64,000 nt of DNA, from NCBI RefSeq assembly GCF_053078305.1, contig NZ_CP166879.1. The stretch is one strand, 5' to 3'. Shown here piece after piece: positions 32,982 through 64,000 of this stretch. Positions within the stretch are counted from its first letter, which is position 1. Every line of letters begins with the position of its first letter. Below the pieces are notes generated by a model that was not told where the DNA came from, did no database searches, and saw only the letters and a list, made by a program, of their open reading frames with translations. A program made the translations under genes and the position numbers.

Positions 32982-33058
32982 TGGTGCGTTGTACTGGATT
33001 CGAACCAGTGACCGATTGCTTAGAAGGCAATTGCTCTGTCCGGCTGAGCTAACAACGC
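32982..33058 (-). tRNA. argO: tRNA-Arg (anticodon TCT), argO-like
   Basis: Cloverleaf read by eye; anticodon loop CTTCTAA; GGTTCGAATCC T-arm; CCA end. Confidence 0.8.
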
Positions 33059-33071
33059 AGTGTACAGATAA

Positions 33072-33148
33072 TGGACCGCCATCGAGGACTCGAACCCCGC
33101 GCAACCAGCTTCGAAGGCTGGCGCTCTATCCCGATGAGCTAATGGCGG
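33072..33148 (-). tRNA. argN: tRNA-Arg (anticodon TCG), argN-like
   Basis: Anticodon loop CTTCGAA; GGTTCGAGTCC T-arm. Confidence 0.75.
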
Positions 33149-33155
33149 TATGTGA

Positions 33156-33231
33156 TGGTGGCCCTTGCTGGATTTGAACCAGCGACCTGGCGATTATGAG
33201 TCGCTCGCTCTCACCACTGAGCTAAAGGGCC
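33156..33231 (-). tRNA. ileZ: tRNA with CAT anticodon, ileX-like (tRNA-Ile2), ileZ-like
   Basis: GGCCCTTTAGCTCAGTGG...GACTCATAATCGC...GGTTCAAATCC...CCA; close to E. coli ileX. Confidence 0.75.
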
Positions 33232-46300: not shown

Positions 46301-46788
46301 AAGTGAATTTTGTGATGCGGTGAATGCGGCTAAGCGCACGCGGAACAGTTAAAACCGTAAAGTGGTCTTTTACGGGGCGTAACGGGCATACTTCTGTATT
46401 CCGGCGTTAATTGTTAACTGGTTAACGTCACCTGGAGGCACCAGGCACTGCATCAACAAAGTTCACTTCGGTGATGAAGGGTAAGAGAAAATGTTGAATG
46501 TAGCTATTGAAAACCAGAACGGGTGGAATTATAGTGCACCTGCACCTCATAAAACGGGTGCCGGGCGTGGAAACCCGATGATGATCAACGCGCATAACCG
46601 CGCTCAGGCGGTTTTTTTTATGCGTCAAGCACAGCCACATTCAAATTATGGTGGGGCGTGCAGGGCAGCTGCAAGGCTGGCCGGCTCCGTTGGTCACCGG
46701 TATTTCCACCCCTGTACGTCTCACCACCTTTATGGTCGTGGAAAACCTCGGTGGTGAGTTATTTAAACTGATCAACGAGGCTGCCATC

Positions 46789-47346
46789 ATGGCTACTACC
46801 CTTACCCTTTCTCACCCTGACGTAACCATCGAAAATGGTCGCGCAGTCACCACGTCTGTTGCAGTTGCAGAGTTCTTCCACAAACTGCATAAAAACGTCA
46901 TTCAAAAAATTGAAGCTCTGGAATGTTCCGACGAATTCACTGAGCTTAATTTTCAGCCCAGCGAATACACCGACACAACCGGTCGCAAACTCCCAATGTA
47001 CCAAATCACCAAAAACGGCTTCGTTTTCCTGGTGATGGGCTTCACCGGCAAAAAAGCCGCTGCATTTAAAGAAGCCTACATCGCTGAGTTCGATCGCATG
47101 GAGAAAGAACTGCGCCAGAATAACGCCCCGTCTCCCGACAAAATGATTCACGGGGACGGACGTACCCTGGTTATCCGTCTCGACGAACACGGCAATATCA
47201 AATTCACTGAAACCGTTCCGGACGGCGCAATGGTCTGCACCCTGGATACCTTCCAGTTTTATCTGGAAAAACAAGGCTGGACTCTTGTAAACCGGAGCGC
47301 AATTAAAAATATGACTGTGGAGCAATTACTAAAAATTCATTGTTGA
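46789..47346 (+). CDS. Rha-family phage regulatory protein
   Basis: Internal start MATTLTLSHPDVTIENGRAVTTSVAVAEFFHKLHKNVIQKIEALE... in track ORF 46648..47346. Confidence 0.65.
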   Translation: MATTLTLSHPDVTIENGRAVTTSVAVAEFFHKLHKNVIQKIEALECSDEFTELNFQPSEYTDTTGRKLPMYQITKNGFVFLVMGFTGKKAAAFKEAYIAEFDRMEKELRQNNAPSPDKMIHGDGRTLVIRLDEHGNIKFTETVPDGAMVCTLDTFQFYLEKQGWTLVNRSAIKNMTVEQLLKIHC

Positions 47347-47822: not shown

Positions 47823-50261
47823 ATGAGCACTGATAAAGAAGAATTTTCGCTATATTGCGAAGCAAAAAATGACAAGGTCAGAAAACGCCTTGGGATTAAA
47901 GGGGGTTTTTACTGGACTACAGCAAAAAAATTATCTGTTGCCATCTCACGGTGCGTTGTTGCAATGGACGAGGCAGGCTACGACGCTGATGATTTCAAAA
48001 AACCTGTCCGCGTCCATTTCCCCGTTGTGAATGACCTTCCACCGGAAGGCGTGTTTGATACCGAATTCTGCAACCGCTATGAAAAAGGCGGGGAAGATGG
48101 CATCACAATGATATTTATAGCGCCTTCCCCCTCAGTTCAGGACAAACCAGCCAGCACTGACAATACCAACGTCAATGGCGAAGACATGGCTGAGATTGAG
48201 GATAATATGCTCCTGCCAATTTCCGGTCAGGAACTGCCCATTCGCTGGCTTGCGCAACATGGCTGCGAAAAACCGGTAACGCACGTTTCACGGGAAGAAC
48301 TTCAGGCATTACATATCGCACGAGCTGAAGAACTGCCGGCTGTTACTGCCCTGGCTATTTCCCACAACACAAAGCTGCTCGACCCGCTGGAGATTCGCGA
48401 CCTTCACAAACTGGTACGCGACACAGACAAAGTTTTCCCTAATCCCGTTAATTCCAGTCTGGGGTTAATGACTGCTTTTTTCGAAGCATACCTGAACGCT
48501 GACTATACCGATCGAGGTCTGCTGACAAAAGAGTGGATGAAAGGAAATCGTGTTTCTCGCATCACCCGCACGGCTTCCGGTGCAAATGCCGGTGGCGGAA
48601 ATAAAACGGATCGTAATCCTGATTTAGTACACACCCTCGATACTCTGGATGTGGAGATTGCAGCAGCCACACTTCCGATGGATTTTAATATTTATGAAAT
48701 ACCCGTGAGCGTTTATCGTCGCGCAAAAGAAATCGTCCTGAAAAAAGAAAGTCCGTTCAGGGAATGGTCCCCAGCACTTCGCGCAACCCCTGGTATCCTG
48801 GACTATTCCCGCGCAGCTATTTTTGCACTTATCCGGAGCGCCCACCCTGAGTTTTATCACTACCCGGGACGTCTTCAGGGGTATATCAATGCCAACCTGA
48901 CAGAGACCGATCATGAGAATCCCACAACTGAAACTCTCACGGCTGCCCGGCATACACCGGAAAAAGATATCCTGGAAGAAATTAACGGAGGACTGGCTGC
49001 TGAGTGCAAAACAGAAGAAGAAAAAAATGATGAAGAAAACCCGCAACCATCTGGCGCAATGGCAGATGAACAGGCAACGGCTGAAACAATGGCAGCGGAT
49101 ACAGTTGAACATCATCAGGACCCGCAGCCGCTGGATGACAAGTCACAGGTAAAAGTTACTGCTGAAGAAGTAAATAAAATTATGGAGGCAGCAGACATCA
49201 GTCGACCAGATGCCGACAAATTGCTTGCCGCTTCTCGTGGTGAGTTTGTTGAAGGGATTAGCGACCCGAATGATTCGAAATGGGTTAAGGGGATTGAAAC
49301 CTGCGATTCTGTGAACCAGAACCAGCAAGAAACGGAACAGAACGGTCAGAAAGCGGAACAAAACAGCCCAAATGCGTTACAAAACGAGCCAGAAACGAAA
49401 CAACCTGAACCAGTCGTGCAACAGGAAGAGGAAAAAGTTTGTACCGCATGCAATCAGACTGGTGGTGGTAACTGCCCTGATTGTGGCGCAGTGATGGGTG
49501 ACGCAACCTACCAGGAGACATTCAACGAAGAAAGCCAGGATGAAGCCCGGGAAAAAGATCCGGAGGAAATGGAAAGTGCCGGACTCCCGAACAAGGAGTG
49601 CACCGAAGGCGATCAACATGCCAATGGCAATAATGAAACAGGCGAGACAGCAAATCCCTTAATTAAGGTGAACGGTCATCGTGAAATCACATCCACCAGC
49701 AGGTTGTGGCACCATCTGATGATTGACCTTGAAACAATGGGCAAAAATCCTGACGCACCAATAGCCTCAATAGGCGCTGTATTTTTCGATCCACAAACCG
49801 GAGAGCAGGGGCCTGAATTCAGCAAAATAATTGATATGGGTACATGTGGCGGCACTGTAGACATAAGCACCATCGAATGGTGGCTTCAACGCTCTGGCGA
49901 AGCCCGTGCCGCCATTTTAGCTGATCGAATACCGCTTGATGATGCGCTTTTACAATTACGGGAATTTATAGACGAAAACTCCGGTGAGTTTTTTGTTCAG
50001 GTCTGGGGAAATGGAGCCAACTTCGACAACGTGATTTTACGCCGTTCATATGAACGGCAGGAGATCCCCTGCCCGTGGCGTTACACCAATGATCGCGATG
50101 TAAGAACGATGGTCGCTCTGGGGTTGGTGATGGATTTCGATGCCCACAACGTCACCACATTTGAGGGTGAACGCCATAATGCCCTGCACGATGCGCGTTA
50201 CCAGGCAAAATACGTTTCAGCTATCTGGCAAAAACTGTTCCCGAGTCAGGCTGATTTTTAA
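47823..50261 (+). CDS. Large early-region protein with C-terminal DEDDh-type 3'-5' exonuclease domain
   Basis: 812 aa; C-terminal MIDLETMG..., ...WGNGANFD..., ...[11 protein letters not shown]...; acidic linker; [16 protein letters not shown]ys cluster. Confidence 0.6.
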
Positions 50262-50319: not shown

Positions 50320-50523
50320 ATGAGCAGCTTATTTTTAACCGAAGATGAATTGCTAATATTAACGGGCTGCAAATATGCAAGCCACCAGCGCAACTGGTTA
50401 ATAAAAAATGGGCTTCCGTTCTATACCAATCGTAGTGGAAAACCGATCGTCAGTCGGGAACTGTTTACCTGTAGAAACACTTTACCACCACGTGAGGCTG
50501 AACCTGATTTCGGTGCGATCTAA
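50320..50523 (+). CDS. Excisionase-like protein (DUF4224-like)
   Basis: 67 aa immediately upstream of integrase; ...LTEDELLILTGCKYASHQRNWLIKNGLPF... Confidence 0.5.
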   Translation: MSSLFLTEDELLILTGCKYASHQRNWLIKNGLPFYTNRSGKPIVSRELFTCRNTLPPREAEPDFGAI

Positions 50524-51548
50524 TGGGAAGACGAAGGAAAAATCCCGAACACGAAAAATTACCGCCAAAGGTATACCCCAATAAATATAGTTATGTATGG
50601 AAACCGACATCCAGAGAATCTGTAACCTTAACTGCAATCGAGGATGGTTTAGCCGCATTATGGAAAAAGTACGAAGAAACAATTAACCATCGCGATCGGG
50701 CAATGACATTTGGGCGTTTGTGGGAAAAATTTCTCGCCAGCGCCTATTACAGCGATCTTAGTCCCAGAACGCAAAAAGATTATCTGCAACATCAAAAAAA
50801 GCTGCTGGCCGTATTCGGTAAGGTGCTGGCCGATTCTGTAAAACCAGAGCACATCAGACGATACATGGACAAAAGGGGCGAGCAGAGTAAAACGCAGGCA
50901 AACCATGAAAAAAGCAGCATGTCACGCGTTTACAGTTGGGGGTATGAACGAGGGTATGTAAAGGCTAATCCTTGTGCCGGTGTAAGTAAATTCAAGGCCA
51001 AAAACCGAGAGCGCTATGTGACTGACAAAGAATACCAGGCCGTATTAAGCGTGGCTCCTGTGCCTGTTTTTATCGCAATGGAAATTGCATACCTGTGCGC
51101 AGCAAGGATTTCCGATGTGTTGTCTCTGAAATGGGAACAGATCGGAAACGACGGGATCTTTATCCAGCAAGGTAAAACAGGAAAGAAACAGATAAAAGCC
51201 TGGAGTCCCCGTCTGCAATCAGTTATAGAAAAAGCTAAACAGCTACCCAAGTCAGCCTATGTAATCAGCAATCAGTACGGCAACCGTTACATGTATAAAG
51301 GATTTAATGAAATGTGGGTTGAGGCAAGAAATTTGGCTGGACAAATATCAGGGATCGCGACGGATTTTACATTCCATGACCTTAAAGCCAAGGGGATATC
51401 AGATTACGAAGGTAGTAGCCGGGATAAGCAACTTTTCTCTGGTCACAAGACCGAAGGACAGGTGCTAATCTATGATAGAAAAGTAAAGATCTCACCCACA
51501 CTGGATGTACCATTACCCCAGAATATTCCAACAAAATATTCCAAGTAA
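50523..51548 (+). CDS. int: Tyrosine integrase
   Basis: 341 aa; phage integrase family; adjacent to tRNA 3' end. Confidence 0.9.
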   Translation: MGRRRKNPEHEKLPPKVYPNKYSYVWKPTSRESVTLTAIEDGLAALWKKYEETINHRDRAMTFGRLWEKFLASAYYSDLSPRTQKDYLQHQKKLLAVFGKVLADSVKPEHIRRYMDKRGEQSKTQANHEKSSMSRVYSWGYERGYVKANPCAGVSKFKAKNRERYVTDKEYQAVLSVAPVPVFIAMEIAYLCAARISDVLSLKWEQIGNDGIFIQQGKTGKKQIKAWSPRLQSVIEKAKQLPKSAYVISNQYGNRYMYKGFNEMWVEARNLAGQISGIATDFTFHDLKAKGISDYEGSSRDKQLFSGHKTEGQVLIYDRKVKISPTLDVPLPQNIPTKYSK

Positions 51549-51600: not shown

Positions 51601-51690
51601 TGGTGGAGAGAGGGGGATTTGAACCCCCGGTGGAGTTGCCCCCACTCCGGTTTTCGAGACCGGTCCGTTCAGCCGCTCCGGCATCTCTCC
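51601..51690 (-). tRNA. serU: tRNA-Ser (anticodon CGA), serU-like; prophage attachment site
   Basis: GGAGAGATGCCGGAGCGGCTGAACGGACCGGTCTCGAAAACCGG...GGTTCAAATCCCCC...CCA read from minus strand. Confidence 0.85.
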
Positions 51691-53069: not shown

Positions 53070-61070
<8,001 letters not shown>

Positions 61071-61651
61071 TTTTTCGCTATATTTTCTTACAGAGTGCTC
61101 CATTCGGGGCGCTCTGCTTTTACATTCGTTTGCTATCAAACGCTCCATTAATATACCTGCATTTTCCCATACCTCCCTGTTAGTCTGAAGATAGTCGAGC
61201 CTCCTTTCGTTTTTAATAAACGCTTTCACACATGGTATAACCACCTGTTCCACGCCAGCGGGAAACAAAGTATATGATCTATTTTGATAACGATCATTGT
61301 TGCTATGTAGTCAAATTACGTTAATGTTTAGCTAAGTACATCAAGGAGGAAGATATGTCAGGACGTACAAACAATATCAGTTCATATTTCAATATTACAA
61401 ATTACATCAGTACCACTCATAATAATGTATGCCTGTTAACGGGGATTTAAGTTCAGGTTGTCTTATTTATGATGGTGAAATACATTACAATGTTTTAGTT
61501 CCACCAGATTCGCGTTCGGTGTGACTATGATCGTATCCGGTGAGTACAGCTTTGATCCAAAGGCTGGTTTTCTGTGATGATTGACCAGCCTCAGAGTATT
61601 GATGACACCACCGTTCATAACAGATCGGCATTACTTTGCATACGTACTGCC

Positions 61652-62704
61652 TCAAATTCTCGCCAAAACACTTTTTAATGCCTTTGCGAATTCATCCAGA
61701 CTTATATTGTCAATTTTTTTCCCAACGACGACTGACTCCGAAACATCGGCCATTGCGGGCCATCGCGTTTTGTAATCAGCATAAATTGCAACAACGGGAG
61801 TATTATAGGCACTTGCCATATGTAATATTGAGGTGTCAGGAGTTATTGCGATATAAGCATCTTTTATGATTGCTGCTGAACGTTTAATCGAGGGTGATAA
61901 GGATAAACGGTAGACATTATTATAACAATCCACTAATACCCTGGCTTTATCTTCCCCTTTTGGTCCATGAACGATCACTATTGGTATATCTGTTTCACTT
62001 TGAATTTTTTCTATTAGATTTTCTGCAATCGATAGTGAAAATGTACGTTCCTGCGAGCTACCTTCTAAATTAAGCGCAATGTAAGATCCTAACGATCGCA
62101 TTTCCTCGCGCACCTCATCGAGTACATCCTCACTTAGTGGCAATTCATATATTGGCCTGACTGCTGGAAAACCCGCCTCACGCATCATAAATGCCCATGT
62201 CATGGGTACGGGAGCCCGGAGATTCTGATCCATCCGGGACGCGTTCTTACACACAGGGGAATAGCACTTCATGGTTAAACCAACAACCTGAAAATTCGTT
62301 TTTGCTTTCAACTTACTGATAAATAACATCGTTTTCAGGTTCTTTTTACGCATCGCCTCTATACAAAGATCCGGCGTACCGTATTGCTGTGTTATGTTCT
62401 TCGCTAAATCTTTTATTTCTTTTAATGTTGCGTGATCCTGCATAGTCATTGTGACTAATGTTAATTTAGTCTGTTCAAGTTTGAGCGCATTAAAGACTTC
62501 TAAATTAATTGTCGACGTAACAATTAGTAGATGCTTAATTTTATGCAATTCAAGCGCCCGAATAACAGGAAAGATGGCCATAGCATCGCCAATCTGATCG
62601 GGAATATGGATGACAACAAAATCTGTTTTTTCAATATTGAAATTATAAGCTTTATAATCGTAGTAACTAAATGCAATATGTCTCAACAATGATGCTAAAA
62701 ACAT
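61652..62704 (-). CDS. yeeL: Glycosyltransferase family 9 (heptosyltransferase-like), YeeL-like, apparently intact
   Basis: 350 aa single ORF; chromosomal position between yeeJ and shiA. Confidence 0.65.
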   Translation of the reverse strand: MFLASLLRHIAFSYYDYKAYNFNIEKTDFVVIHIPDQIGDAMAIFPVIRALELHKIKHLLIVTSTINLEVFNALKLEQTKLTLVTMTMQDHATLKEIKDLAKNITQQYGTPDLCIEAMRKKNLKTMLFISKLKAKTNFQVVGLTMKCYSPVCKNASRMDQNLRAPVPMTWAFMMREAGFPAVRPIYELPLSEDVLDEVREEMRSLGSYIALNLEGSSQERTFSLSIAENLIEKIQSETDIPIVIVHGPKGEDKARVLVDCYNNVYRLSLSPSIKRSAAIIKDAYIAITPDTSILHMASAYNTPVVAIYADYKTRWPAMADVSESVVVGKKIDNISLDEFAKALKSVLARI

Positions 62705-63008
62705 ACCTAACCTCGCCTCCCTACTGGTTATAATGCAATGCAGTCTATCAGACTCATCAGGGTGCCATTTTGTGCATATGCGGACTTTTATGTTTCATAT
62801 CTCGAACCTGTGGGTCCTCTGCTTAATCCTTAAACAACACCAGCAACTCCCGCGCTTTCATCTTCCAGCGAATTTTTCATGTTGCCGCTAATCAGCCATA
62901 AAATCATTTGCAGATGCGCTCTGTCGAGGTAGTCTCATAAGGTTCGTTTATAGATCGACGGCAATGTGAGTTACCTTTTCCATACTAATTATAAAAAGAC
63001 AGTACAAA

Positions 63009-64000
63009 CAGGATCATTATGGACTCCACGCTCATCTCCACCCGTCCCGATGAAGGGACGCTTTCGTTAAGTCGCGCCCGACGAGCTGCGTTAGGCAGTT
63101 TCGCTGGTGCCGTCGTCGACTGGTATGATTTTTTACTCTATGGCATCACCGCCGCACTGGTGTTTAATCGCGAGTTTTTCCCGCAAGTAAGCCCGGCGAT
63201 GGGAACGCTCGCCGCATTTGCTACCTTTGGCGTCGGATTCCTTTTCCGTCCGCTCGGCGGTGTCATTTTCGGTCACTTTGGCGACCGACTGGGACGTAAG
63301 CGCATGTTAATGCTGACCGTCTGGATGATGGGTATCGCGACAGCCTTGATTGGTATTCTTCCTTCATTCTCGACCATTGGGTGGTGGGCACCTATTTTAC
63401 TGGTGACGCTGCGTGCCATTCAGGGATTTGCCGTCGGCGGCGAATGGGGAGGCGCGGCGTTGCTTTCCGTTGAAAGTGCACCAAAAAATAAAAAAGCCTT
63501 TTACAGTAGCGGTGTACAAGTTGGCTACGGTGTAGGTTTACTGCTTTCAACCGGACTGGTTTCATTGATCAGTATGATGACGACTGACGAACAGTTTTTA
63601 AGCTGGGGCTGGCGTATTCCTTTCCTGTTTAGCATCGTACTGGTACTGGGAGCATTGTGGGTGCGCAATGGCATGGAAGAGTCCGCGGAATTTGAACAAC
63701 AGCAACATTATCAAGCTGCCGCGAAAAAACGCATCCCGGTTATCGAAGCTCTGTTACGACATCCCGGTGCTTTCCTGAAGATTATTGCGCTACGACTGTG
63801 CGAGTTGCTGACGATGTACATCGTTACCGCCTTTGCACTTAATTATTCAACCCAGAATATGGGGTTACCGCGCGAACTTTTCCTTAATATTGGTTTGCTG
63901 GTAGGTGGATTAAGCTGCCTGACAATTCCCTGTTTTGCCTGGCTTGCCGATCGTTTTGGTCGCCGCAGGGTTTATATCACAGGTGCGTTAATCGGAACGT
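63009..64000 (+). CDS. shiA: Shikimate transporter ShiA (MFS), partial; continues beyond window end
   Basis: Read by eye: MDSTLISTRPDEGTLSLSRARRAALGSFAGAVVDWYDFLLYG... open to end of window. Confidence 0.85.

What the first reader, a model, noticed from the sequence alone, without database searches (positions are those of the whole stretch)
61652..62704. Apparently intact yeeL-like GT9 glycosyltransferase
A single 350-aa ORF encodes a heptosyltransferase-like GT9 protein between yeeJ and shiA. In K-12 this locus is, to my recollection, a split pseudogene, so the intact form may be functional here.
Basis: partly seen in the sequence, partly recalled or inferred. Interest (0 to 1): 0.25.

Follow-up and report, generated by a model that had tools for sequence, protein, structure and literature searches.

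The report
Intact yeeL glycosyltransferase, ordinary in E. coli
The window carries an undamaged copy of yeeL, a lone sugar-transferase gene that is broken by one stop codon in laboratory E. coli K-12; the undamaged form is the usual, already-annotated state in most wild E. coli, so the finding is correct but ordinary.

Summary
The 350-aa ORF at 61652-62704 (minus strand) is real. It lies between yeeJ and shiA and belongs to glycosyltransferase family 9 (GT9). K-12 yeeL is the same length and colinear, and its only lesion is CAA->TAA at codon 235.

The intact state is not unusual. The locus is in 5286 of 5426 complete E. coli genomes, 11 of 14 sampled annotations are intact, and this exact protein is already in NCBI. 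The K-12 stop allele is a lineage polymorphism in about 14% of genomes.

yeeL is not tied to yeeJ. It occurs without yeeJ in other genera and stays intact where yeeJ has decayed.

The nearest E. coli paralog by architecture is WaaU. More distant relatives sit in surface-glycan clusters or are fused to an O-antigen-ligase domain. The most likely role is an accessory transferase acting on LPS core or another lipid-linked glycan, which is untested. The only phenotype hint is an unvalidated hyper-motility transposon hit in ST131.

The parts
61652..62704 (-). yeeL coding sequence: 350 aa plus stop, intact GT9 glycosyltransferase
   Evidence: ORF. Same coordinates by homology as RefSeq CDS WP_000477874.1 in O145 RM9872. 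Colinear with K-12 b4497. GC 38.7% and GC3 35.3%, against 51.6% for the window.
62711..62721 (-). Shine-Dalgarno-like sequence (GGGAGGCGAGG); the GAGG has a 6-nt spacer to the ATG
   Evidence: Read directly from the sequence. Not tested experimentally.
62585..62590 (-). Codons G39-D40: the N-terminal 'GD' motif, where D40 is the equivalent of the WaaC/WaaF catalytic base D13
   Evidence: Invariant in 26 orthologs. Local alignment to the WaaF 'PSWVGD' and WaaU 'NNKLGD' motifs. Full-length hhalign to WaaU. Role of D13 taken from bioRxiv 10.1101/2021.06.16.448588.
62045..62062 (-). Codons G215-R220 (GSSQER): aligns with the WaaC phosphate-binding stretch T187-T188...K192, and R220 replaces K192
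   Evidence: hhalign. G215, S216 and R220 are invariant. Residue roles.
62000..62002 (-). Codon 235, CAA (Gln) in the window; TAA in K-12, where it is the sole inactivating lesion
   Evidence: The exact K-12 allele 63-mer is found in 765 of 5426 genomes. The same haplotype with CAA is found in 1182.
61820..61837 (-). Codons D290-H295 (DTSILH): the donor-sugar/phosphate-binding motif equivalent to WaaC D261-T262-G263...H266
   Evidence: hmmsearch alignment to WaaC and hhalign. D290, T291 and H295 are invariant. Residue roles.
61497..61651 (.). Conserved backbone 3' flank of yeeL. The variable yeeJ cassette and its allele-specific spacer (61071-61496) end here.
   Evidence: The full 581-bp spacer is present in only 187 of 5426 genomes. 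The roughly 150 bp next to the yeeL stop matches in about 5000 genomes.
62705..63018 (.). 314-bp divergent intergenic region between yeeL and shiA, presumed to hold the yeeL promoter
   Evidence: Gap computed. The consensus sigma-70 scan found no convincing minus-strand promoter here, so the promoter is unassigned.

Best explanation
The ORF is the intact, wild-type allele of yeeL. It is a stand-alone ('orphan'), horizontally acquired, cytoplasmic GT9 glycosyltransferase with a GT-B fold and an inverting mechanism, and it is probably catalytically competent. The most likely mechanism is as follows. The C-terminal domain binds a nucleotide-sugar donor through G215-S216, R220 and D290-T291...H295. 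ADP-heptose is the default donor for GT9, but the donor is unproven. D40 in the N-terminal domain acts as general base and activates a hydroxyl on a lipid-linked surface glycan. The most probable acceptor is a branch position of the LPS outer core, as with WaaU. An undecaprenyl-PP-linked oligosaccharide is the alternative. The modification is non-essential and is repeatedly lost, as in K-12.

Shown: the gene is intact, it belongs to the family, the fold is complete, the motifs are retained, it is under purifying selection, it is near-universal in E. coli, and it is independent of yeeJ.

Inferred: enzymatic activity, donor, acceptor and phenotype.
For: Intactness and colinearity.

Family: Pfam GT9 above cutoff.

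Catalytic and donor residues are retained and invariant in the family, with residue roles.

Closest E. coli paralog architecture is WaaU, the outer-core HepIV transferase: 302 aligned columns, probability 93%.

Selection: dN/dS 0.23 pooled over 12 intact E. coli alleles. Against other genera, pN is 0.16-0.33 with saturated pS, giving dN/dS of 0.1 or less.

Clade context: P0122 (35% identical over the full length) and P0123 lie in surface-glycan clusters. These hold a WcaJ-type initiating transferase, GT2 and GT4 enzymes, Wzy_C ligase/polymerase-like proteins and a second GT9. P0148 fuses an O-antigen-ligase (Wzy_C) domain to a YeeL-like domain.

Phenotype hint: in ST131 strain EC958, Tn5 insertions in yeeL were enriched in the hyper-motile pool, logFC 7.46, P<0.001 (PMC5425062). 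An ST131 genome checked here has the intact CDS.
Against: No biochemical or LPS-chemistry evidence exists.

Sequence similarity to characterised heptosyltransferases is weak. The NCBIfam WaaC/F/Q models score 17-38 bits against cutoffs of 134-185, and Pfam covers only the C-terminal half.

The WaaC ribose-binding E222 aligns with G250 and is not conserved, so the donor may not be ADP-heptose.

The gene is never found in a glycan operon within its own family; it is always a singleton. The acceptor is therefore inferred only from relatives at 25-35% identity.

Frequent independent inactivation argues for at most a conditional benefit. This includes the nonsense allele in 14% of genomes, frameshifts, IS insertions and Shigella sonnei fragments.

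No consensus promoter was found.

The TraDIS hit was not validated by a targeted deletion.
Confidence: 0.55

Rival explanations
1. YeeL is a protein heptosyltransferase of the BAHT type (like TibC or Aah) that glycosylates the neighbouring inverse-autotransporter adhesin YeeJ or other autotransporters.
Confidence: 0.07
2. The ORF is an evolutionary relic. It happens to be intact in this strain but has no current function, is silent or dispensable, and is on its way to the pseudogene state seen in K-12.
For: There is repeated independent inactivation: Q235* in 765 of 5426 genomes, a frameshift, IS1/IS5/IS4 insertions and truncations, and Shigella sonnei fragments. Within-species dN/dS of 0.23 is looser than expected for a housekeeping gene. 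No promoter was recognised. K-12 engineers use the locus as a neutral integration site.
Against: dN/dS is well below 1 within E. coli and 0.1 or less across genera. All 33 family-invariant residues, including the catalytic motifs, are retained. About two thirds to three quarters of sampled genomes keep it intact. It remains intact in lineages where the neighbouring yeeJ has decayed. There is a significant TraDIS phenotype in ST131.
Confidence: 0.12
3. YeeL is an active GT9 enzyme whose acceptor is not a surface glycolipid. It could be, for example, a soluble metabolite or another cell component. Alternatively it could be a domesticated phage lysogenic-conversion or superinfection-exclusion gene whose relevant role is altering phage receptors.
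For: The gene is always a singleton with shifting neighbourhoods and foreign base composition. One homolog (62% identity) sits in the moron slot between the tail-fibre and sheath genes of a P2-like prophage in Erwinia aphidicola. PHROGs holds a family, phrog_27389, that matches YeeL end to end. An MFS transporter gene is adjacent in E. coli, Erwinia persicina and Rosenbergiella.
Against: There are no hits in 50,697 phage genomes. Only distant GT9s at 24-31% identity occur on IMG/VR contigs. There is no PADLOC defence-model match. The PHROG family may come from over-extended prophage calls. The adjacent MFS genes are of different families and orientations. The fold and the closest paralog (WaaU) point to lipid-linked glycan acceptors.
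Confidence: 0.18

Closest known systems
E. coli K-12 yeeL (b4497) pseudogene
   Same: Same locus between yeeJ and shiA, same 1053-bp length, 96.7% nucleotide identity, colinear.
   Different: K-12 carries TAA at codon 235 where the window has CAA, plus 14 amino-acid substitutions. The window allele is the intact form annotated by PGAP as 'glycosyltransferase family 9 protein'.
WaaU (b3623), the putative ADP-heptose:LPS heptosyltransferase IV of the K-12 outer core
   Same: GT9. Full-length profile alignment (302 columns, probability 93%, E 2.6e-7). Shares an N-terminal extension before the first strand, the GD motif, and the DT..H....P..A.Y motif.
   Different: Only about 19% identity. WaaU is encoded in the waa cluster, whereas yeeL is an isolated gene elsewhere with foreign GC content.
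WaaC (HepI) and WaaF (HepII) LPS inner-core heptosyltransferases; PDB 2gt1/2h1f/6dfe and 1psw
   Different: 12-14% identity. Sequence-level similarity is confined to the C-terminal domain. NCBIfam equivalog scores are far below cutoff. K192 is replaced by R220, and the E222 equivalent is not conserved. YeeL has an extra low-confidence loop at 142-158 with conserved Cys residues.
Veillonella parvula GT9 of unknown function (PDB 3tov)
   Different: 15% identity. It is itself uncharacterised, so it gives no functional transfer.
TibC/Aah bacterial autotransporter heptosyltransferases (BAHT; PDB 4rap)
   Different: Much weaker structural match than to LPS-type GT9 enzymes. Not detected by the sequence profile. 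No operon link, and no co-occurrence with yeeJ.

Membership tests
Glycosyltransferase family 9 (Pfam PF01075 / CAZy GT9) | Significant match to the family profile above the curated threshold | tested here: met
   PF01075 scores 29.8 bits against a cutoff of 22, E 4.7e-7, but covers only residues 207-320. Orthologs carry precomputed PF01075 hits.
Glycosyltransferase family 9 (Pfam PF01075 / CAZy GT9) | Complete GT-B fold: two Rossmann-like domains, closest to solved GT9 structures | tested here: met
Glycosyltransferase family 9 (Pfam PF01075 / CAZy GT9) | N-terminal catalytic Asp in the G-D motif (WaaC D13) | tested here: met
   G39-D40 are invariant in 26 sequences. They align to the GD motifs of WaaF and WaaU. 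The equivalence rests on alignment, not on a superposed active site.
Glycosyltransferase family 9 (Pfam PF01075 / CAZy GT9) | C-terminal donor-binding residues (WaaC T187/T188, K192, D261, T262, H266) | tested here: met
   G215/S216, R220 (a K-to-R change), D290, T291 and H295 are all invariant. The equivalent of WaaC E222 is not conserved.
Glycosyltransferase family 9 (Pfam PF01075 / CAZy GT9) | Glycosyl-transfer activity | not testable with these tools
   Needs an enzyme assay or LPS chemistry.
LPS heptosyltransferase I/II/III orthologs (WaaC/WaaF/WaaQ; TIGR02193, TIGR02195, TIGR02201) | Score above the equivalog cutoff | tested here: not met
   Scores are 38.3 against 185.3, 20.1 against 134.6, and 17.2 against 170.2 bits. 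YeeL is not an ortholog of any of these.
BAHT protein heptosyltransferases (TibC/Aah) | Closer sequence or structure relation to TibC than to LPS heptosyltransferases | tested here: not met
BAHT protein heptosyltransferases (TibC/Aah) | Genetic coupling to the substrate autotransporter gene | tested here: not met
   yeeJ and yeeL are convergent. The family occurs without yeeJ. yeeL is intact where yeeJ is degraded. The prevalences are 97% for yeeL and about 40% for yeeJ.
Ortholog of E. coli yeeL | Same chromosomal slot and high colinear identity | tested here: met
   The order mtfA-asnT-yeeJ-yeeL-shiA is seen in the window and in K-12. Nucleotide identity is 96.7% with no indels.
Pseudogene (as in K-12) | Internal stop, frameshift, truncation or IS insertion | tested here: not met
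   None is present in the window allele.
Known anti-phage defence systems (PADLOC) | Match to a defence-protein model | tested here: not met
   No PADLOC hit for YeeL or for the prophage-borne Erwinia homolog.

The most novel reading that the evidence does not exclude
Most wild E. coli, but not K-12, make an additional accessory modification of the LPS outer core or another lipid-linked surface glycan, catalysed by YeeL. YeeL would be a WaaU-like orphan GT9 that moves horizontally, once caught as a P2-like prophage moron in Erwinia. The modification would alter surface properties such as motility and phage-receptor access. If so, the K-12-based picture of E. coli core biosynthesis lacks one enzyme that is present in the species at large.
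Probability: 0.3. Interest if true: 0.4.

Novelty: already known. Interest (0 to 1): 0.12.

Why it matters
As a finding it matters little. The intact gene is the normal state in E. coli, this exact protein is already deposited, and K-12's pseudogene status is in the reference annotation.

The residual value is practical. YeeL is a well-conserved enzyme under purifying selection with unknown substrate. It cannot be studied in K-12 because K-12 carries Q235*. A repaired-K-12 versus K-12 pair, or a deletion in a wild strain, would be a clean way to look for a missing surface-glycan modification. It would also test the unvalidated hyper-motility hit in ST131.

Tried and rejected
1. YeeL as a dedicated YeeJ glycosyltransferase: rejected on distribution, orientation, synteny and fold ranking.

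2. Phage origin or defence system. tblastn against 50,697 phage genomes found nothing. The IMG/VR scan found only distant GT9s. PADLOC found nothing. The single P2-like prophage copy in Erwinia and the PHROG family are kept as leads, not as an explanation.

3. Plasmid carriage: the high-identity 'plasmid' hits are multi-megabase records, apparently chromosomes or hybrids.

4. RNA element in the flanks: only one sub-threshold chance Rfam hit.

5. Promoter for yeeL: the consensus scan found fewer sites than shuffled controls and none in the yeeL-shiA spacer on the minus strand.

6. Plain phmmer against PDB gave only a marginal WaaF hit. The family profile was needed.

7. A literature search for 'yeeL' alone is swamped by author initials. 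Combined searches gave mostly strain-engineering uses of the K-12 pseudogene locus.

8. The afdb50 fold library was unavailable.

9. The 1997 re-evaluation paper on the 'rat glutathione transporters' is not held.

10. A full census of intact versus broken alleles across all 5426 genomes was not possible. I used allele-specific 63-mers and a 14-genome annotation sample, so the intact fraction of roughly two thirds to three quarters is approximate. It is also biased by the many K-12 derivatives in the collection.

Full report
OBSERVATION. The mechanical ORF list shows a single 350-codon ORF at 61652..62704 on the minus strand, with an ATG start and no internal stop. A Shine-Dalgarno-like GGGAGGCGAGG lies 6-11 nt upstream of the ATG (sequence). 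A very long Ig-repeat adhesin ORF (yeeJ) ends at 61070. An ORF starting at 63019 is 99.7% identical to K-12 ShiA over the 327 aa that fit in the window. Upstream are serU, mtfA and asnT in K-12 order.

COMPARISON WITH K-12. MG1655 annotates yeeL (b4497) as a pseudogene at 2052276-2053328, between yeeJ and shiA. It is exactly the same length as the window ORF, with no indels and 96.7% nucleotide identity. Its only disabling lesion is TAA at codon 235, where the window has CAA. PGAP calls the same lesion 'internal stop' in a K-12 derivative. The split is caused by one nonsense codon, not a frameshift.

IS IT INTACT RELATIVE TO FUNCTIONAL GT9 ENZYMES? Pfam PF01075 passes its gathering cutoff but covers only the C-terminal half. 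The NCBIfam equivalog models for heptosyltransferases I, II and III score far below cutoff. The protein is therefore a divergent GT9 member and not an ortholog of WaaC, WaaF or WaaQ.

A 26-sequence alignment covers E. coli, a 72%-identity Escherichia-like lineage, E. albertii, Pseudocitrobacter, Erwinia and Rosenbergiella, down to 54% identity, plus one 25% outlier. It shows that the window protein is colinear and full length, with 33 invariant positions.

Profile alignments place YeeL residues on WaaC residues as follows:
- D290, T291 and H295 on D261, T262 and H266.
- G215-S216 on T187-T188.
- R220 on K192.
The N-terminal 'IGD' (G39-D40) aligns with the 'GD' motif of WaaF and WaaU that holds the catalytic base D13.

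The roles of these WaaC residues (D13 as catalytic base; T187/T188/K192 on the pyrophosphate; K192/D261/H266 on the heptose) are taken from bioRxiv 10.1101/2021.06.16.448588. The one exception is the ribose-binding E222, whose equivalent (G250) is not conserved.

IS THE INTACT STATE UNUSUAL? It is not.
- The locus is found in 5286 of 5426 complete E. coli genomes.
- The protein belongs to a 90%-identity cluster of 10,923 member sequences named 'glycosyltransferase family 9 protein'.
- The window's exact sequence is already in NCBI (for example EGO4341467.1) and has been seen on 37 contigs.
- I opened the annotation of 14 loci taken down the identity ranking. Eleven are intact 1053-bp CDSs, including O145, O157:H7, environmental isolates, the B2 strains IHE3034 and ST131, an ETEC and O39. 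Two carry the K-12 stop and one is frameshifted.
- In the same 40-row spread, three loci are IS-interrupted and three are truncated or deleted.
- An allele-specific 63-mer shows the K-12 TAA haplotype exactly in 765 of 5426 genomes (14%). These include many lab K-12 derivatives but also animal, water and human isolates. The same haplotype with CAA is in 1182 genomes.
- Shigella sonnei contributes many partial proteins.

Roughly two thirds to three quarters of genomes keep the gene intact. This is an approximate figure from a small sample.

SELECTION. Nei-Gojobori dN/dS pooled over 12 intact E. coli alleles is 0.23. Against homologs in other genera, synonymous sites are saturated (pS 0.69-0.82) while pN is 0.16-0.33, so dN/dS is about 0.1 or less. 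The gene is under purifying selection. Within E. coli that selection is looser than one would expect for a core housekeeping gene, which fits the repeated losses.

RELATION TO yeeJ. The tempting idea is that a heptosyltransferase-like gene next to an adhesin gene glycosylates that adhesin, as TibC and Aah do. The evidence argues against it.
- The two genes are convergent.
- yeeJ is in only about 40% of E. coli (PMC5595812), against 97% for the yeeL locus.
- In B2 and several other strains yeeJ is a degraded fragment while yeeL is intact.
- In Pseudocitrobacter the order is amn-shiA | yeeL | mtfA with no yeeJ. A 72%-identity lineage also has yeeL beside mtfA and shiA without yeeJ.
- The window's 581-bp yeeJ-yeeL spacer exists in full in only 187 genomes. 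Only the roughly 150 bp next to yeeL is universal, so the variable yeeJ cassette ends before yeeL.

WHAT THE FAMILY LOOKS LIKE. The gene is always a singleton and its neighbourhood shifts:
- the shiA/mtfA slot in Escherichia and Pseudocitrobacter;
- between a tonB-like gene and yciA in E. albertii;
- after an MFS gene near a LysR gene in Erwinia persicina and Rosenbergiella;
- between maeB and the eut operon in another enterobacterium;
- once between the tail-fibre and sheath/tube genes of a P2-like prophage in Erwinia aphidicola.

In the window its GC is 38.7% (GC3 35%) against 51.6% overall. This is the signature of an old horizontal acquisition.

It is not commonly phage-borne. There were no hits in 50,697 phage genomes, only distant GT9s on IMG/VR contigs, and no PADLOC match. 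PHROGs does contain a family of unknown function that matches YeeL end to end. I suspect this comes from over-extended prophage calls, but I did not test that.

FUNCTIONAL INFERENCE. An exhaustive profile search of 1.84 billion representatives shows the family proper as a single 50%-identity cluster. It is followed by about a dozen full-length relatives at 214-304 bits, then by generic GT9.

The two nearest relatives examined are P0122 (35% identity over the full length) and P0123. Both lie in surface-glycan clusters. These hold a WcaJ-type undecaprenyl-phosphate glucose phosphotransferase (above the NCBIfam cutoff), GT2 and GT4 enzymes, Wzy_C ligase/polymerase-like proteins and a second GT9. 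P0148 is a fusion of an O-antigen-ligase (Wzy_C) domain with a YeeL-like domain.

Among E. coli paralogs, the YeeL profile aligns over its full length only with WaaU, the outer-core HepIV transferase (302 columns, probability 93%). WaaC and WaaF align only in the C-terminal domain.

I therefore consider an accessory transferase acting on a lipid-linked surface glycan the best-supported mechanism. An LPS outer-core branch is the most likely acceptor and ADP-heptose is the default donor. Donor, acceptor and activity are all inferred.

One published hint exists. In a TraDIS swim screen of ST131 EC958, insertions in yeeL (EC958_2299) were enriched in the hyper-motile pool (logFC 7.46, P<0.001). 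yeeL was not among the seven genes validated by deletion (PMC5425062).

VERDICT. The observation and the cautious interpretation are correct, but the feature is ordinary. It is the common, already-annotated wild-type allele of a gene whose K-12 copy is a known pseudogene. Novelty: already known. Interest is low. The residual interest is that the substrate of a conserved enzyme, silent in K-12, remains unknown.

Noticed in passing
P0075 (homolog list); corresponds to window 61652-62704: A database protein named 'glutathione transporter [Rattus norvegicus]' (353 aa) is 76% identical to YeeL. It carries the K-12-specific residues (G117, Q131, I143, N146, F148, L151, S157, K161, F211) and has frameshift-like garbling. 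It looks like K-12 yeeL DNA cloned and sequenced as a rat cDNA, the old RcGshT/RsGshT story. A 1997 re-evaluation paper is cited in PMC4998144 but is not held.
   Followed up: partly
window 53070-61070 (+) and 61071-61496: yeeJ here is the long variant: about 2647-2666 aa depending on the start codon, against 2339 aa in K-12. BLASTP identity to K-12 YeeJ is only about 64-65%, in line with the two length variants described in PMC5595812. Its 3' spacer is allele-specific, and the full 581-bp yeeJ-yeeL spacer occurs in only 187 of 5426 genomes. A strong terminator-like hairpin follows yeeJ at 61091-61116.
   Followed up: partly
L019-L022 and L024-L026 (B2 and other E. coli strains): In many strains the gene upstream of yeeL is annotated as a roughly 2.1-kb frameshifted, incomplete 'Ig-like domain-containing protein' fragment, which is a yeeJ remnant. 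yeeL next to it is intact.
   Followed up: partly
L004 8001-9134 (Erwinia aphidicola CP188307.1): A 62%-identity YeeL homolog sits on the opposite strand between the tail-fibre gene and the sheath/tube genes of a P2-like prophage. This is the classical P2 Z/fun moron position. It was the only phage-borne family member found.
   Followed up: partly
phrog_27389: PHROGs contains a 350-position family of unknown function that matches YeeL end to end (E 4e-232). Yet no deposited phage genome matched by tblastn. It possibly comes from prophage predictions that ran over the yeeL locus.
   Followed up: no
P0148 / L040 1955-4288: A 777-aa metagenomic protein fuses an O-antigen-ligase-type Wzy_C domain to a YeeL-like GT9 domain (25% identity over the whole of YeeL). 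It lies next to a GT4-polysaccharide-deacetylase fusion.
   Followed up: partly
window 62230-62280 (codons 142-158) and codon 114: Three nearly invariant cysteines (C114, C147, C152) cluster around the only low-confidence loop of the model (residues 142-158). This loop has no counterpart aligned in WaaC or WaaF. It could be an acceptor-binding or metal-binding element; this was not tested.
   Followed up: no
P0012, P0014, P0016 and similar (alignment): A common E. coli allele of 346 aa has an in-frame 4-residue deletion (VLDE, residues about 194-197) in the inter-domain region. It is seen on more than 100 contigs.
   Followed up: no
window 28970-51548: A lambdoid prophage appears to be integrated at serU. 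It includes a phage-integrase ORF at 50523-51548 abutting tRNA-Ser(CGA) at 51601-51690, a RecE/exonuclease VIII-like ORF at 47823-50261, a Rha/Ash-type regulator at 46648-47346, and a tRNA-Met/Arg/Arg trio at 32982-33231. The trio is followed on the minus strand by a 331-aa and a 655-aa ORF that I did not identify.
   Followed up: partly
yeeJ-yeeL intergenic region (window 61071-61651): A paper reports a secondary phi80 prophage integration site 'between yeeJ and yeeL' in K-12 derivatives (PMC6016239). No att-like sequence was looked for here.
   Followed up: no
L009-L011 (72%-identity YeeL lineage): In this lineage the gene order is hchA, yeeL(+), mtfA(-), shiA(+), amn. This is consistent with an inversion of the mtfA..yeeL segment relative to K-12 together with absence of yeeJ.
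   Followed up: no
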